Shown one piece after another: positions 56,874 through 60,836 of a stretch of 64,000 bases of DNA. The notes under the pieces were generated by a model, which was not told the origin of the DNA, made no database searches, and saw only the letters and a list, made by a program, of their open reading frames with translations. The position numbers were made by a program, and so were the translations under genes. Every line of letters begins with the position of its first letter. The stretch's first letter is position 1. Source of the stretch: Terriglobia bacterium (GTDB taxonomy: Bacteria > Acidobacteriota > Terriglobia > 2-12-FULL-54-10); NCBI GenBank assembly GCA_963666975.2, contig CAXVYR010000003.1, positions 480,001 through 544,000 of the forward strand. The letters run 5' to 3'.

Positions 56874-58106
56874 GTGCCGATTCTTGGGTCGCAGGAGGTT
56901 GTCCTGCTTATATTGATCGTTTTATTGTCATGCGGGCTGGCAGGGTGGCTCTTTTTGCTCCTGTGGCATGCGCTTCAGACTCGAGGCGTCGCAACGCTCT
57001 CCGGAACGATGGACTTTCCTCTTCGATCGCAGCCTCTTGTCTCCATTCTGATCCCCGCACGAAACGAAGCAGAGATCCTCGCGGCGACCCTCCCGCGCTT
57101 TCTGTCGCAGGACTACGGCAACTTCGAGGTAGTCCTAATAGACGATGCCTCGACGGACGGCACTGCGGATGTGGCCGGAAAATTCATGGCGTCCTATCCG
57201 GAGCGGTTGCGCTTGCTTCGGGTGGAGTCGTTGCCGCCGGATTGGATCGGCAAGACTCACGCGCTGGACGTAGGGTTTCGGGCTGCGAGAGGCGAGTGGG
57301 TGCTGGCCGCTGACGCAGATATTCTGCTTGATCCCAAGGCGCTGCGAGCTGGTTTGTGGGTGGCGGAACAGCAACGAGCGGAACTGGTCAGTATATTTCC
57401 TTTTATGGAATGCGTTTCCTTCTGGGAAAAGGTAATCTTGCCGGGCTTCGGCCTATTGCTCGCCACGTTTTTTCCGGTGCGGAAGGTGAATGATCCCAAT
57501 TCCACTGTGGCCCTGGCATCCGGAGGGTACATCCTAATGCGGCGCAGCGTGTGGGACAAACTGGGAGGATACCAAAGCGTTCGCTCGGAGATGATTGAGG
57601 ACTTGAATACAGCACGGATTGTAAAGCACTCCGGCCATCGCATCTTCGCCGCCCTGACCCAGGACCTGGTGCGGACACGCATGTACAAAAACTTCGGAGA
57701 AATCTGGGAAGGATTGCGCAAGAATGCCTTTGCGAGCCACCACTTTTCTATCCGGCGAATGCTGTTTTGGGTGAGCGGAGGTCTCCTGGCAAACCTGCTC
57801 CCGCTGGCCAGTCTTTTTTATTCTGCAGCTTTGTTGCTGGGCAAGACAGCAGGAAGCGGGGAACAGGCGTGGCAACTCCAGGCGGTTTTGGCTCTCTCCG
57901 CCGCCCAGTATTTCCTGTCCGTGTTGCTGCATCTGCCCGTGCTGGCCTACTACGGCATCGGATTCGGCTATGCGCTGCTGGCTCCTCTGGGTGGCGTTTT
58001 GTACGCTGTGATTTCTTTGGATTCGATGATGAGCACTTTGTTTGGGCAGGGGGTTTCCTGGAAATTGCGGCAATATGGCAGGCCGCCGCTTGAGTCGGAG
58101 GATTGA
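56874..58106 (+). CDS. Membrane GT2 glycosyltransferase (HpnB/CrtQ-like)
   Basis: ILIPARNE, DDASTDGT, WIGK, DAD, IEDL and RMY motifs; flanking TM helices. Confidence 0.85.
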   Translation: MPILGSQEVVLLILIVLLSCGLAGWLFLLLWHALQTRGVATLSGTMDFPLRSQPLVSILIPARNEAEILAATLPRFLSQDYGNFEVVLIDDASTDGTADVAGKFMASYPERLRLLRVESLPPDWIGKTHALDVGFRAARGEWVLAADADILLDPKALRAGLWVAEQQRAELVSIFPFMECVSFWEKVILPGFGLLLATFFPVRKVNDPNSTVALASGGYILMRRSVWDKLGGYQSVRSEMIEDLNTARIVKHSGHRIFAALTQDLVRTRMYKNFGEIWEGLRKNAFASHHFSIRRMLFWVSGGLLANLLPLASLFYSAALLLGKTAGSGEQAWQLQAVLALSAAQYFLSVLLHLPVLAYYGIGFGYALLAPLGGVLYAVISLDSMMSTLFGQGVSWKLRQYGRPPLESED

Positions 58107-58185
58107 ACCGGTCGATCTTTTCGATCTTTCGGCTTGCCTCTCGAGTGGCGGACCAGGAACAAAGCCAGCGAACGCTGCCGAACGG

Positions 58186-58806
58186 TTATTTTGTTTCCGT
58201 TGCAGCGGAAGACGGGTGAACGGCGGTTACCTCCTTCAGATGGCGCTCATAGGATTCCTGCTTCCAGGATTCCGGCACTACACCGATCCCGTCGGAAATC
58301 CGGTTCATGAAATTGAAATAGGCTACAATCGCCACCGCATCGAAGATGTTCTGATCCGTAAAGTCGGCGCCCCTCAGGCTGTCGATGTCTTCTGCAACCA
58401 CGTCGCCAGGGGTGTCGTTCAGCTTGCGCGCAAAGCCCAGCAAAACACGGTCCTTGTCATCCAGGCTTGCCAGCGCCCAGTGATCTTGCTGCAAGGCGGC
58501 AACCAGGGCATGATCGTGGGTGGCGGCGCGGAGAAACTCTCCGTGGGAGACTATTCAGTAGTGGCAGTGGTTCCAACTGGAGACGGCCGTCGAGAGCATC
58601 TCCTCCCAGCGGCGGCCCAGTGAGCTGCCCCCGAAGGTGACTTGATCCGTCAGCCGAAGGACCGCCTGCAATACTCCAGGCTTCATGCTGAAAGCCTGCA
58701 GAATCGGTGAAGGCCGCTTCAATTTCCGTTTCTTTTTAATCTCCTCGTAGGTTTCTTTTAACTCTCCCGTGGCTTGATTTTCATCAATGATCGGCAAGTA
58801 ACCCAT
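58186..58806 (-). CDS. Probable selenoprotein: AhpD/carboxymuconolactone-decarboxylase-like peroxidase-related enzyme (CxxU)
   Basis: EMLSTAVSSWNHCHY-TGA(58555-58557)-IVSHGEFLR, continuing in frame to AYFNFMNRI; hairpin downstream of the UGA. Confidence 0.85.
58529..58557 (-). promoter_or_regulatory. Putative bacterial SECIS element
   Basis: UGA-AUAGUCUCCCA-CGGAGA-GUU-UCUCCG: 6-bp stem whose loop starts with G 18 nt after the UGA. Confidence 0.6.
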
Positions 58807-58868
58807 GATGTCTCCGGGTTGAGTATGCTGAGTGGCTTCTGCGATACAACTATACCAGAATGCAGTGC

Positions 58869-58898
58869 TTGCCTCGAACGAAAGATGCGGCGTATAAT
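58869..58898 (+). promoter_or_regulatory. Putative sigma70 promoter
   Basis: TTGCCT, 18 bp, TATAAT, upstream of the GAF gene. Confidence 0.5.
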
Positions 58899-58967
58899 AG
58901 TGGCTTTCGATACAATTACCAGATGCATTCTTCTTCGATTGATATTCTTCTTCTGTATCGAGGCGGT

Positions 58968-59507
58968 ATGACGAACGGTGCAACAGCGTCACCTACCAGC
59001 GAGGTCGCTCGGCTGATCAACGATGTCCTCAAGGGCGGGAAGGGGCTCGCCGATGAATCGACGGGAAAAATTGTGCAAGAACTGGCCAAACTCTTCTCGG
59101 TCGAGCTGGATGAGGTGGCCATCCTGCAACTCTCCACCGACGGCAGAGTTCTCAGCTTTCTCCATCCTTTTAAGCTGAAGCAAATGGGGAGCATCCCGCT
59201 GAGCACGACCAACTCGCTGGCGGTGCGTACGGTAAGAGAAAAGCGTCCGGAGATGATCAACAACTTCCCGGCTCAGAAGCATCCTACTATTTTTGAGGCG
59301 GTCGGGCTGGACCCCAAAAAGAAAGAGCGGGAGCCGATTCAGAAAATCATCAGCGCTCCTTTGCTGCTCGATTCAAAACCCGTCGGGGTCATTCAGATTT
59401 CCCGCAAAGGGAAATCCCTGCAGACGGCGGGAGCCGACTTTACCATACGCGACCTCACCTCCCTGATGACCACAGCGGGGATGCTGGCGAAATGCTTTAA
59501 GAAATAG
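58968..59507 (+). CDS. Stand-alone GAF-domain protein
   Basis: IISAPLL...VGVIQI...FT..DL..L GAF C-terminal signature; GAGG RBS. Confidence 0.8.
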   Translation: MTNGATASPTSEVARLINDVLKGGKGLADESTGKIVQELAKLFSVELDEVAILQLSTDGRVLSFLHPFKLKQMGSIPLSTTNSLAVRTVREKRPEMINNFPAQKHPTIFEAVGLDPKKKEREPIQKIISAPLLLDSKPVGVIQISRKGKSLQTAGADFTIRDLTSLMTTAGMLAKCFKK

Positions 59508-59645: not shown

Positions 59646-60836
59646 CTAATGGGCAGGCGCTTGCAATGCCTTCTCTGCCGCCGCTACCCCGGCCCCACGA
59701 TCCAAAGAAAAACCGCTATCAGCCAGAACAGACTCCAGGGCGCTGAGCAGCAGCAGGACGCAGGAGGGAGTCGCCGTCAGTCCCATCAGGCCGATGCGCC
59801 AGATCTGGCCTTTCAATTTATCCAGGCCTCCGGCAATGTCGATGCCGAATCGGTTCAAAAGGCTCGTCCGGATGCGCGCGTCGTCCACTCCAGCCGGGAT
59901 GCGGATGGTATTTACAGTCCATGCGCGGGCTGCGGGGTCTTCGACGAACATTTTCAATCCCAAAGCTTCCACTCCCTGAACCAGCGCCAAGTGACTCTGT
60001 TGATGCCTGGCCCAAGCCGACTCCATGCCTTCTTCCCGCAGCATCCGCAGGGCCTCGTGAAATCCAAACAGCATATTGACGGGCGGGGTGTGATGGTAGC
60101 GCCGTTCCTTCCCCCAGTATTGCTGGATCATGCTGAGGTCCAGATACCAGCTTTGCACGGGGTGCCGGCGTTGGGAGATGACCTGAGCTGCCCGCTCGCT
60201 GACGGTGATGGGAGCCAAGCCAGGAGGGCAAGCAAGACATTTTTGAGAGCCGCTGTAGCAAATATCCAGATTCCATAGGTCGGTTTCCAGCGGCAGTCCT
60301 CCCAGCGAGGAAACCGTGTCGACCACCATCAGAGCGCCGCACTCCTGAGCGATTGCGCGCAAAGGCTCCAGCGGCTGGCAGACCCCGGTGGAGGTTTCGC
60401 TGTGAACCGCCGCCAGAACCTTCACCTTTTTTCCCCTGACGGCTTTGCGAATTTGGTCCGGATCGGGAGCTGCTTCCCAGGGAACATCAATGCGGATCAG
60501 CTTGCCGCCGCACCGCTCTACGATTTCGCACATGCGCGCGGCAAAAACCCCGCCCACAATCACTGCTGCGGTGTCCCCGGGCTCAAGTAAGTTGACCAGC
60601 GCGGCCTCCATGCCGGCGCTGCCGGTTCCCGAAAGAGGAAACGTGATGGAGTTCTGGGTTCGGAAGGCATAGCGCAACATCTCGTGCAGTTGGTCCAAAA
60701 TCTGCAGGAAGGCGGGATCGAGCAGGCTGACCACGGGCTGGATCATGGCGCGGTATACGCGCGGGTCCACCTCGCTGGGGCCCGGCCCCATCAGCAGGCG
60801 TTTGGGAATATTCACAGGGAGGAAGTTGTCAGCCAT
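59646..60836 (-). CDS. Alanine--glyoxylate/serine--pyruvate aminotransferase (class V PLP)
   Basis: LMGPGPS, GTGSAGMEA, HSETSTG, DTVSS, SQKCL and WRIGLMG motifs. Confidence 0.93.
   Translation of the reverse strand: MADNFLPVNIPKRLLMGPGPSEVDPRVYRAMIQPVVSLLDPAFLQILDQLHEMLRYAFRTQNSITFPLSGTGSAGMEAALVNLLEPGDTAAVIVGGVFAARMCEIVERCGGKLIRIDVPWEAAPDPDQIRKAVRGKKVKVLAAVHSETSTGVCQPLEPLRAIAQECGALMVVDTVSSLGGLPLETDLWNLDICYSGSQKCLACPPGLAPITVSERAAQVISQRRHPVQSWYLDLSMIQQYWGKERRYHHTPPVNMLFGFHEALRMLREEGMESAWARHQQSHLALVQGVEALGLKMFVEDPAARAWTVNTIRIPAGVDDARIRTSLLNRFGIDIAGGLDKLKGQIWRIGLMGLTATPSCVLLLLSALESVLADSGFSLDRGAGVAAAEKALQAPAH

What the first reader, a model, noticed from the sequence alone, without database searches (positions are those of the whole stretch)
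58186..58806. Hidden selenoprotein: AhpD/CMD-like peroxidase with a CxxU active site
Seen: the ORF track splits this locus in two (58555-58992 and 58186-58494), but the pieces are in one frame, separated only by TGA at 58555-58557. Read through, they give a 206-aa protein: ...VSSWNH-C81-H-Y-U84-IVSH-GEFLR...YFNFMNRI. Established: AhpD/CMD peroxidase-related enzymes use N-x-C-x-x-C-x-x-x-H, and AhpD-like CxxU selenoproteins are a known but usually mis-annotated class. Inference: the UGA sits exactly at the second Cys, so it is probably decoded as Sec. That implies selA/selB/selC/selD elsewhere in this genome (none is in the window) and a Se-dependent redox enzyme of unknown substrate.
Basis: partly seen in the sequence, partly recalled or inferred. 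Interest (0 to 1): 0.85.

Follow-up and report, generated by a model that had tools for sequence, protein, structure and literature searches.

The report
Selenocysteine-containing AhpD-like redox protein gene
This is a real but ordinary gene for a small antioxidant-type enzyme whose in-frame "stop" codon almost certainly encodes selenocysteine; it belongs to a selenoprotein family described in 2005 that gene finders still routinely cut in two.

Summary
On the minus strand, 58806..58186 is one frame with a single TGA (58557..58555, codon 84). Read through, it gives 206 aa with N-x-C81-x-x-U84-x-x-x-H88.

- The protein passes NCBIfam TIGR01926 "peroxidase-related enzyme" (126.9 bits, cut-off 81.8).
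- TGA sits at the same column in 22 of 34 aligned homologous genes from 30 loci of the same class.
- 17 of those 22 carry a 6-7 bp hairpin 11 nt after the TGA, with a G-first 3-nt loop. None of 9 Cys/other-codon homologs has it.
- The part 3' of the TGA is under purifying selection (dN/dS 0.21, no indels).
- The genome has tRNA-Sec, SelA, SelB and a Sec-containing SelD.

The kind is known. "AhpD-like protein, CxxU" was reported in 2005, and a 2026 review lists it under TIGR01926 among predicted families. This is therefore a new, unannotated member, not a new class. Substrate and Sec insertion remain untested.

A side observation: three relatives carry TGG (Trp) at the Sec column and keep the hairpin.

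The parts
58186..58806 (-). Complete coding sequence of the AhpD-like (TIGR01926) selenoprotein: 206 codons including Sec84, plus the TAA stop at 58188..58186
   Evidence: frame and translation. (TIGR01926 126.9 bits, cut-off 81.8). (Pfam CMD PF02627 30.3 bits, cut-off 23). (AF2 pLDDT 91.6; Foldseek top hit 3c1l, TMq 0.77).
58555..58557 (-). In-frame TGA, codon 84, read as selenocysteine (the second position of the C-x-x-U redox motif)
   Evidence: TGA at this column in 22 of 34 aligned homologous genes. Solved homologs have Cys here (alignments).
58564..58566 (-). TGC, Cys81: the first position of C-x-x-U and the presumed resolving cysteine
   Evidence: Cys at this column in all 22 TGA-bearing genes.
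58543..58545 (-). CAC, His88 (C-x-x-U-x-x-x-H)
   Evidence: At least 90% conserved in the 29-sequence alignment A2.
58600..58602 (-). Glu69, 12 residues before Cys81
   Evidence: Invariant column in alignment A2. Its role as a proton-relay residue is inferred from recalled work on M. tuberculosis AhpD.
58528..58544 (-). Candidate bacterial SECIS hairpin. It starts 11 nt after the TGA. The stem is 6 bp in the window (7 bp in most relatives) and the loop is G-U-U (58537..58535). It overlaps codons His88-Arg93.
   Evidence: fold. (80.5% of cells paired vs 72.4% shuffled, 0/500; slid controls 32-54%; pair 20-30 is C:G in 11, G:C in 9, unpaired in 2). (at least 6/7 pairs in 17 of 22 TGA genes; 1-5/7 in 9 non-TGA, non-TGG homologs).
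58812..58815 (-). GGAG ribosome-binding site, 5 nt before ATG 58806
   Evidence: Read. The ortholog has GGAGG at the same place.
58849..58857 (-). TGGTATAGT, an extended -10-like element conserved with the same-genus ortholog (possible promoter)
   Evidence: alignment (conserved block). Inference only: the consensus scan did not report a minus-strand promoter.
58165..58181 (-). Terminator-like hairpin with a T-rich tail just after the stop codon
   Evidence: Two such sites were found in the region against 1.7 expected from shuffles, so this is weak evidence.

Best explanation
The locus is one intact, free-standing gene for a 206-residue all-helical AhpD/CMD-fold protein of the 'AhpD-like / peroxidase-related' family (TIGR01926). 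Codon 84 (UGA) is recoded to selenocysteine.

Recoding (inferred from sequence). SelB carrying Sec-tRNA(Sec) binds a small hairpin that begins 11 nt after the UGA and delivers Sec in competition with release factor 2.

Chemistry (inferred from homologs). Sec84 sits where the second Cys of the family's C-x-x-C motif sits. Its selenolate attacks an oxidised substrate, either a hydroperoxide directly or the oxidised cysteine of a peroxiredoxin-type partner. Cys81 then resolves the intermediate into an intramolecular selenenylsulfide. Glu69 and His88 serve as the proton relay. A cellular thiol reductant (thioredoxin or a lipoyl protein) regenerates the enzyme.

Shown here:
- the single frame;
- family membership;
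- column-exact conservation of TGA;
- the hairpin and its link to TGA;
- purifying selection 3' of the TGA;
- the complete Sec machinery.

Inferred only: actual Sec insertion, the substrate and the reductant. I put about 0.93 on 'genuine selenoprotein', about 0.85 on 'selenol/thiol oxidoreductase' and about 0.55 on 'peroxide defence specifically'.
For: (1) One frame, one TGA, 206 aa, motif N-x-C-x-x-U-x-x-x-H.

(2) TIGR01926 scores 126.9 bits against a cut-off of 81.8, covering residues 3-179, that is, both sides of the TGA. PDB homologs 3c1l (E 1e-23), 2pfx, 6k40, 2oyo and 2prr align across the TGA with Cys at that column.

(3) Of 61 genomes searched (own, genus, family, class), 35 have a match at E<=1e-10, and 34 of the 49 listed matches contain an in-frame TGA. 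In the 30 loci fetched, 34 genes were aligned. 22 have TGA at the window's column, always as C-x-x-U. 6 have Cys there, 3 have TGG, and 3 have another residue.

(4) The hairpin has at least 6 of 7 pairs in 17 of 22 TGA genes. G is the first loop base in 19 of 22. None of the 9 Cys/other-codon homologs reaches 6/7. Pair 20-30 switches C:G (11) to G:C (9). This couples a Gly/Ala second codon base to a synonymous Leu third base, which protein constraint does not explain.

(5) Nei-Gojobori dN/dS against the 78%-identical same-genus ortholog is 0.097 5' of the TGA and 0.209 3' of it, with dS 0.71-0.91 and no indels. In the 20 codons between the TGA and the first possible restart I count 5 synonymous and 2 replacement codon changes (sequences).

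(6) The own genome (98.9% complete) has tRNA-Sec (72.8 bits; ARAGORN anticodon TCA), SelA (563 bits), full-length SelB (372 bits, profile positions 1-579 of 581) and SelD (349 bits). SelD has its own in-frame TGA in G-U-A-S-K.

(7) TGA is the commonest true stop in the window (27 of 52 long frames), so it is not a general sense codon.

(8) The AF2 model has pLDDT 91.6. The best structural matches are AhpD-like proteins (3c1l TMq 0.77 / TMt 0.87; 6k40; 2oyo).

(9) The homolog DR1765 (PDB 6k40, E 2.5e-19 to residues 63-179) was reported to protect against H2O2 in a manner dependent on its CxxC cysteines. I read this in passages of PMC8945050, not in the original paper.
Against: - No experiment shows Sec in this protein. 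According to the 2026 review, none shows it in any member of the family either: it is listed there among predicted, not verified, families.
- The 101-nt stretch around the TGA folds no better than shuffles (z = +0.79; 156 of 200 shuffles fold at least as well). The hairpin is short and has only 6 pairs in the window.
- Two of the five covariation measures do not beat the shuffles: pairs with a double change, 2 vs 1.7 (275/500); further pair types, 4 vs 4.4 (418/500).
- The hairpin overlaps the conserved peptide H-G/A-E-F/D-L-R, so much of its conservation could be protein-driven.
- 5 of 22 TGA genes do not fit this register. They fold into other hairpins.
- Rfam has no matching SECIS family.
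- SelA was not found in the same-genus genome G001 (95% complete), although tRNA-Sec, SelB and SelD are there.
- SelA is present in 52 of 61 genomes of the group, so its co-occurrence with TGA forms (20 of 21) says little.
- No conserved neighbour points to a partner or substrate.
Confidence: 0.93

Rival explanations
1. Pseudogene: a recent nonsense mutation (TGC/TGT to TGA) inactivated an ordinary CxxC AhpD-like gene.
For: Table 11 reads a stop, and gene callers split the locus. Public protein collections hold only 3' fragments of close relatives.
Against: TGA is at the same column in 21 other genes from 20 other genomes across several families of the class. The 3' part is under purifying selection with no indels at dS about 0.7. 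A TGA-linked hairpin is present. The Sec machinery is present.
Confidence: 0.02
2. Genuine termination: the UGA stops translation and the cell makes only an 83-residue N-terminal fragment. In a variant of this, the two halves are made as separate polypeptides, with a restart at the TTG at 58494.
For: The ORF list gives two pieces. UGA recoding is never 100% efficient (PMC3834832 abstract), so some truncated product is likely anyway.
Against: The 20 codons between the TGA and the first start codon include His88 and are conserved at the protein level with mostly synonymous changes. An 83-residue fragment would end just before the catalytic residue and lack over half of a single-domain fold. No restart signal was seen.
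Confidence: 0.03
3. UGA is read through with a standard amino acid (Trp or Cys by near-cognate tRNA, or a genome-wide code change) rather than Sec.
For: Three relatives in one genus have TGG (Trp) at this column and are under purifying selection. A non-Sec residue can therefore be tolerated in at least that lineage.
Against: TGA ends 27 of 52 long frames in the window, so there is no code change. The position is the catalytic Cys column of solved homologs. A SECIS-like hairpin and the full Sec machinery are present. The genome's SelD uses TGA at its known Sec site.
Confidence: 0.02

Closest known systems
AhpD-like protein selenoprotein family. First reported as 'AhpD-like protein, COG2128, CxxU' (Sargasso Sea 2005). 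Called 'AhpD-like 1/2' in GOS 2008. Listed as 'AhpD-like protein, TIGR01926, CxxU' in Table 1 of a 2026 review.
   Same: The HMM family is the same (TIGR01926 above cut-off). The C-x-x-U motif has Sec at the second position. A small hairpin with G in the apical loop follows the UGA, which is the feature PMC1088965 names for bacterial SECIS elements. It is a single-Sec, stand-alone small protein.
   Different: Nothing in kind. This lineage (own genus) is only 29-40% identical to the other class members aligned. It also carries a C-terminal extension of about 25 residues (181-206), partly helical in the model.
DR1765, the AhpD-like protein of Deinococcus radiodurans (PDB 6k40)
   Same: The fold and subfamily are the same (E 2.5e-19; Foldseek TMq 0.77). 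The redox motif is at the same place. It is the only close relative with functional data I could find: the mutant is H2O2-sensitive and complementation depends on the CxxC cysteines (PMC8945050 passages).
   Different: DR1765 has Cys, not Sec, at the second position. The sequence match covers only residues 63-179.
Mlr4105 (PDB 3c1l), 2pfx, 2oyo and 2prr: structural-genomics 'peroxidase-related / antioxidant defense' proteins
   Same: These are the best sequence and structure matches (3c1l E 1e-23 over residues 11-179, about 30% identity). They share the ...S-S-x-N-x-C-x-Y-C...H-G... motif.
   Different: All are CxxC proteins, and none has a known substrate.
Mycobacterium tuberculosis AhpD (PDB 1knc/1gu9; NCBIfam TIGR00777)
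   Same: It has the CMD/AhpD core with Glu...C-x-x-C-x-x-x-H. From recall, the second Cys is the nucleophile that reduces AhpC and lipoamide is the reductant. This is the template for the mechanism proposed here.
   Different: This protein is not a member: TIGR00777 scores 18 bits against a cut-off of 191.95. Structural similarity is weak (1gu9 at rank 47, E 0.38, TMq 0.46).

Membership tests
AhpD-like selenoprotein (TIGR01926, CxxU) | Sequence scores above the curated cut-off of NCBIfam TIGR01926 (peroxidase-related enzyme) | tested here: met
   126.9 bits against a cut-off of 81.8, residues 3-179 on profile positions 2-176 of 178.
AhpD-like selenoprotein (TIGR01926, CxxU) | In-frame UGA at the second position of the C-x-x-C/U redox motif, aligned with Cys in homologs | tested here: met
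   C81-H-Y-U84. Cys at this column in 3c1l and 2pfx (alignments). TGA at this column in 22 of 34 aligned genes and Cys in 6.
AhpD-like selenoprotein (TIGR01926, CxxU) | Bacterial SECIS-like stem-loop just downstream of the UGA, with a small apical loop containing G | tested here: met
   The stem is 6 bp (7 bp in most relatives) with a G-U-U loop starting 17 nt after the UGA. It is linked to TGA (17 of 22 TGA genes against 0 of 9 non-TGA, non-TGG homologs). One pair is compensatory. Caveats: the hairpin is short, it overlaps a conserved peptide, and the 101-nt fold is no more stable than shuffles. The numeric bSECIS criteria are recalled, not read.
AhpD-like selenoprotein (TIGR01926, CxxU) | Host genome encodes tRNA-Sec, SelA, SelB and SelD | tested here: met
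   All four score above their family cut-offs. SelD is itself a selenoprotein.
AhpD-like selenoprotein (TIGR01926, CxxU) | Selenium actually incorporated at the UGA | not testable with these tools
   This needs 75Se labelling or mass spectrometry. The 2026 review lists the family among predicted, not experimentally verified, families.
AhpD/CMD fold (Pfam PF02627) | CMD domain hit above the gathering score, and an all-helical AhpD-like fold | tested here: met
   PF02627 scores 30.3 bits against 23. The AF2 model is all-helical with pLDDT 91.6. Foldseek gives probability 1.00 to 3c1l, 2prr, 6k40 and 2oyo.
Canonical AhpD (TIGR00777, M. tuberculosis type) | Score above the TIGR00777 cut-off | tested here: not met
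   18 bits against a cut-off of 191.95. 1gu9 is only at rank 47, E 0.38.
AhpD-related CFYUT (seleno)protein (NF041238) | Score above the NF041238 cut-off, and its architecture of about 357 positions | tested here: not met
   61.2 bits against a cut-off of 175. Only profile positions 151-345 of 357 match.

The most novel reading that the evidence does not exclude
The window's own gene is ordinary for its family. The most novel reading my evidence does not exclude lies in its relatives.

In one genus of the same class (g17), three species have TGG at the Sec column and a fourth has TGA. All four keep SelA and a UCA-anticodon tRNA-Sec. The TGG genes keep the downstream hairpin (7/7, 6/7 and 6/7 pairs) and are under strong purifying selection. 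By synonymous distance the TGA and TGG forms are interleaved.

SECIS-dependent Sec insertion at UGG by wobble has been shown in engineered E. coli (PMC3834832, abstract read). These natural genes could therefore make a Trp/Sec mixture at a sense codon. That would be a natural case of SECIS-directed sense-codon recoding without a changed tRNA. The plainer reading is a simple Sec-to-Trp substitution with a decaying hairpin: two of the three carry a G.G mismatch in the stem.
Probability: 0.07. Interest if true: 0.7.

Novelty: new member of a known kind. Interest (0 to 1): 0.25.

Why it matters
For this genome it corrects an annotation. Two meaningless fragments become one 206-aa selenoprotein, which adds to the organism's selenoproteome and shows a selenium-dependent redox function.

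More generally, the split is systematic. The 19 closest relatives in a 5.8-billion-protein collection are all unnamed 3' fragments of 113-139 aa, so this lineage of the family is invisible to protein-level surveys.

It does not open a new question. The family has been catalogued since 2005 and its substrate is still unknown. What would matter is a biochemical study of any member. This one offers a clear hairpin, a natural Sec/Trp/Cys series among its relatives, and solved Cys homologs as structural templates.

Tried and rejected
- Rfam scan of 58100-58900 at E<=10 found no SECIS family, only a chance hit (Xoo8, E 0.89).
- Whole-stretch folding of 101 nt was not more stable than shuffles. The case for the hairpin rests on the comparative data instead.
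- The conserved-neighbour search over the 30 loci (1.5-kb flanks; all-vs-all blastp of frames of 90 aa or more) found no neighbour shared beyond close kin. I therefore propose no partner.
- In the window the gene lies between a convergent GT2 glycosyltransferase (56874-58106, +) and a divergent GAF-domain ORF (58860-59507, +). The GT2 neighbour is kept in the same-genus genome (79% identity). The + strand ORF I compared in the same-genus locus did not match the GAF ORF.
- Code 4/25-type reassignment is rejected, because TGA ends 27 of 52 long frames.
- The alternative start GTG 58992 is rejected, because homologs start at the ATG 58806 position.
- A Sec-specific tRNA with a CCA anticodon in the TGG-bearing genus was not found: all four have anticodon TCA.
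- The search for related loci in genome contigs found nothing, so I did not name the organism or its class.
- Not run: expression data (look-up of sequencing runs, read laying) and complex prediction. Neither could show Sec insertion.
- Not seen: supplementary tables of the 2005/2008 surveys and the BSepDB database. These may already list this lineage.
- Papers. Passages read: PMC1088965, PMC2398784, PMC13188914, PMC13326102 and PMC8945050. Abstract and outline only: PMC3834832. Search listing only: the other papers.
- Recalled, not read: the original DR1765 paper (Zhao et al. 2020), the work on the M. tuberculosis AhpD mechanism, and the numeric bSECIS criteria.

Full report
**1. Observation**

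They are in the same frame. Translating 58806..58186 with TGA=U gives a 206-residue product with a single recoded codon, U84 (TGA at 58557..58555), and a TAA stop.

The local motif is S-S-W-N79-H-C81-H-Y-U84-I-V-S-H88-G-E-F-L-R. This fits N-x-C-x-x-C/U-x-x-x-H.

The start is ATG 58806, not the GTG at 58992:
- GGAG lies 5 nt upstream.
- The same-genus ortholog begins with the same M-G-Y-L-P behind GGAGG.
- More distant homologs align from residue 1.

**2. What the protein is**

Family hits:
- Pfam gives CMD (PF02627, 30.3 bits, cut-off 23).
- NCBIfam gives TIGR01926 "peroxidase-related enzyme" at 126.9 bits (cut-off 81.8) over residues 3-179, on both sides of the TGA.
- The canonical AhpD model TIGR00777 (18 bits vs 191.95) and the CFYUT (seleno)protein model NF041238 (61 bits vs 175) are not met.

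Solved relatives:
- Against solved structures the best sequence matches are 3c1l (E 1e-23), 2pfx, 6k40, 2oyo and 2prr.
- In the printed alignments the TGA column is the second Cys of their C-x-x-C.

Structure model:
- An AlphaFold2 model built on a 29-sequence alignment is confident (pLDDT 91.6, pTM 0.87) and all-helical.
- Foldseek places it with the same AhpD-like structures (3c1l TMq 0.77 / TMt 0.87).
- M. tuberculosis AhpD matches only weakly (rank 47, E 0.38).
- The CMD-family debrominase Bmp8 appears at E about 8e-5.
- Glu69 is invariant and His88 at least 90% conserved in the alignment.

**3. Is the TGA a conserved Sec codon?**

I searched 61 genomes (own, genus, family, class) with the read-through protein. 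35 had a match at E<=1e-10, and 34 of the 49 listed matches contained an in-frame TGA.

I re-translated the 30 fetched loci with TGA=U and aligned the 34 matching genes. At the window's column 84:

| Codon or residue at column 84 | Genes | Notes |
|---|---|---|
| TGA | 22 (own gene plus 21 others from 20 other genomes) | always C-x-x-U |
| Cys | 6 | all six lack the first Cys |
| TGG (Trp) | 3 | motif C-V-Y-W |
| Met, Ser or Leu | 3 | |

This is what a selenoprotein family looks like. It rules out a private nonsense mutation.

A 5.8-billion-protein collection adds indirect support. The 19 closest relatives (55-89% identity) are all fragments of 113-139 aa covering only the 3' part. Five of the eight I looked at begin exactly at residue 85 (M-V-S/H-H-G-E-F-L-R). 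One carries the name "hypothetical protein" and the rest have no name. Gene callers evidently break this lineage at the same place.

**4. Recoding signal**

A hairpin begins 11 nt after the UGA (window 58544..58528; loop G-U-U at 58537..58535). On an ungapped alignment of the 22 TGA genes:
- 80.5% of cells pair, against 72.4 +/- 1.8% in shuffles (0/500 reach it) and 32-54% when the 3' arm is slid.
- The covariation score is 0.183 against 0.098 (0/500).
- Pair 20-30 is C:G in 11 genes, G:C in 9, and unpaired in 2.

That switch couples the second base of a Gly/Ala codon to the synonymous third base of a Leu codon. The peptide alone does not explain it.

Per gene:
- 17 of 22 have at least 6/7 pairs, and 19 of 22 have G as the first loop base.
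- The other five fold into different hairpins.
- As a control, none of the 9 homologs with Cys or other codons at the column reaches 6/7 (range 1-5). The three TGG genes keep 7/7, 6/7 and 6/7.

Results against:
- The 101-nt stretch is no more stable than shuffles (z +0.79).
- Two of the five covariation measures are not above shuffles.
- The hairpin overlaps a conserved peptide.
- Rfam has no matching family.

**5. Selection**

Against the same-genus ortholog (78% amino-acid and 80% nucleotide identity, no indels), Nei-Gojobori dN/dS is:

| Region | dN/dS |
|---|---|
| 5' of the TGA | 0.097 |
| 3' of the TGA | 0.209 |
| Codons 85-180 | 0.194 |

dS is 0.67-0.91. The downstream half is translated and constrained.

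**6. Machinery**

The window is G000:C3:480001-544000 in a 4.23-Mb, 4-contig genome, 98.9% complete. It holds:
- tRNA-Sec at C3:431679-431772 (72.8 bits; ARAGORN SeC, anticodon TCA);
- SelA (563.5 bits);
- SelB (371.8 bits, full length);
- SelD (349.5 bits) with its own in-frame TGA in G-U-A-S-K.

None of these is in the window. TGA ends 27 of 52 long frames in the window, so the code is standard.

Among the 21 genomes with a TGA form, 20 have SelA above the cut-off. The exception, G001 (95% complete), has tRNA-Sec, SelB and a TGA-containing SelD. SelA is in 52 of 61 genomes of this group anyway, so this co-occurrence carries little weight.

**7. Context**

The gene looks monocistronic:
- It is convergent with a GT2 glycosyltransferase (56874-58106, +).
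- It is divergent from a GAF-domain ORF (58860-59507, +), with a class-V aminotransferase further up (59646-60836, -).
- A terminator-like hairpin follows the stop codon, but such sites are no more frequent here than in shuffles.
- An extended -10-like TGGTATAGT (58857..58849) is conserved with the ortholog. Calling it a promoter is inference only.
- No neighbour is conserved across the family, so context gives no clue to a partner.

**8. How it most likely works**

Recoding: SelB with Sec-tRNA(Sec) binds the hairpin and inserts Sec at UGA84.

Chemistry: this follows the AhpD template. From recall, the second Cys of M. tuberculosis AhpD is the nucleophile, and a Glu-water-His relay assists it. 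The template fits the data here, because Sec occupies exactly that second position. In the six Cys-type relatives only that second position keeps a Cys, which marks it as the essential residue.

The cycle would run as follows:
- Sec84 selenolate attacks a hydroperoxide, or an oxidised peroxiredoxin-type cysteine.
- Cys81 resolves the intermediate to a selenenylsulfide.
- A thiol donor reduces it.

The only functional data on a near relative are for DR1765. The mutant is H2O2-sensitive, and complementation depends on the CxxC cysteines. I read this in passages of PMC8945050, not in the original paper. Substrate and reductant are inferred, not shown.

**9. Comparison with what is known, and novelty**

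- "AhpD-like protein (COG2128), CxxU" was one of the new selenoprotein families of the Sargasso Sea survey, with 27 sequences (PMC1088965).
- "AhpD-like 1" was the fourth most abundant prokaryotic selenoprotein family in the GOS data, with 299 selenoproteins and 902 Cys homologs (PMC2398784).
- BSepDB uses the family as its browsing example (PMC13326102).

The window's gene meets every testable defining feature of that family. It is a new, unannotated member of a known kind. It is somewhat divergent (29-40% identity to the class relatives aligned) and has a genus-specific C-terminal tail. A specialist would not be surprised.

**10. Side observation**

In genus g17, three species have TGG (Trp) and one has TGA at the Sec column.
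- All four keep SelA and a UCA-anticodon tRNA-Sec.
- The TGG genes keep the hairpin, though two carry a G.G mismatch.
- They are under purifying selection (dN/dS 0.065-0.196 among the Trp forms).
- The TGA form is closer to one Trp form (pS 0.41) than that Trp form is to the other two (pS 0.63-0.66). So there were either two TGA-to-TGG changes or one reversal.

SECIS-dependent Sec insertion at UGG by wobble was shown in engineered E. coli (PMC3834832, abstract). Natural Trp/Sec dual decoding there is therefore not excluded, but a plain substitution is far more likely.

**11. Verdict**

This is a genuine selenoprotein gene (confidence 0.93) of a known family. Interest is low to moderate (0.25).

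Noticed in passing
L032:1501-2067(+), L037:1501-2064(-), L038:1501-2022(-) against L036:1501-2028(-) (genomes G038, G046, G030 against G022; genus g17): Three species have TGG (Trp; motif C-V-Y-W) at the Sec column, and a fourth species of the genus has TGA. All four have SelA and a tRNA-Sec with anticodon TCA. The TGG genes keep the downstream hairpin (7/7, 6/7 and 6/7 pairs) and are under purifying selection (dN/dS 0.065-0.196). By synonymous distance the TGA and TGG forms are interleaved..
   Followed up: partly
L044, L045, L048, L049 and L051 (two domains): The six homologs with Cys at the Sec column all lack the first Cys of the motif (x-x-x-C). No C-x-x-C form was among the 34 genes aligned from this class, whereas the solved homologs from other phyla are C-x-x-C.
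   Followed up: no
G000:C4:1360322-1361257 (L018): The genome's selenophosphate synthetase SelD is itself a selenoprotein, with an in-frame TGA in G-U-A-S-K. The same holds in the same-genus genome G001.
   Followed up: partly
G001:C2:273247-273861(-) and G001:C2:438515-439129(+): The same-genus genome shows two equal-scoring copies of the ortholog (both 78% identity, E 4.4e-106) in inverted orientation on one contig. This may be a real inverted duplication or an assembly artefact.
   Followed up: no
G001 (whole genome): SelA (TIGR00474) was not found in this 95%-complete genome, although tRNA-Sec, SelB, a TGA-containing SelD and the TGA-containing AhpD-like gene are present. It probably lies in an assembly gap.
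   Followed up: partly
L046:1504-1941(+) and L046:2615-3088(+) (G049): Two Sec-containing paralogs of the family lie about 0.7 kb apart. Their downstream hairpins are in a different register from the common one.
   Followed up: no
L031:1501-2055 with 2269-2670; L040:1501-2055 with 2314-2661: In two genomes (one in the window's own family) the Sec-containing gene is followed on the same strand and in the same frame by a second AhpD-like domain that has neither Cys nor Sec at the motif (M or S at the column). This may be a tandem pair or a fusion.
   Followed up: no
window 58860-59507 (+): The GAF-domain ORF divergent from the selenoprotein gene probably starts later than listed, at an ATG near 58968 (my reading of the sequences). 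The block around that ATG is also conserved in the same-genus locus. The + strand ORF I compared there did not match the GAF ORF, whereas the GT2 neighbour is kept at 79% identity.
   Followed up: partly
Public protein collection (P0002-P0020): All 19 close relatives (55-89% identity) in the 113-361 aa range are 3' fragments of 113-139 aa. Eighteen are unnamed and one is called 'hypothetical protein'. Five of the eight inspected start exactly one codon after the Sec column. This is a systematic annotation break for this lineage.
   Followed up: partly
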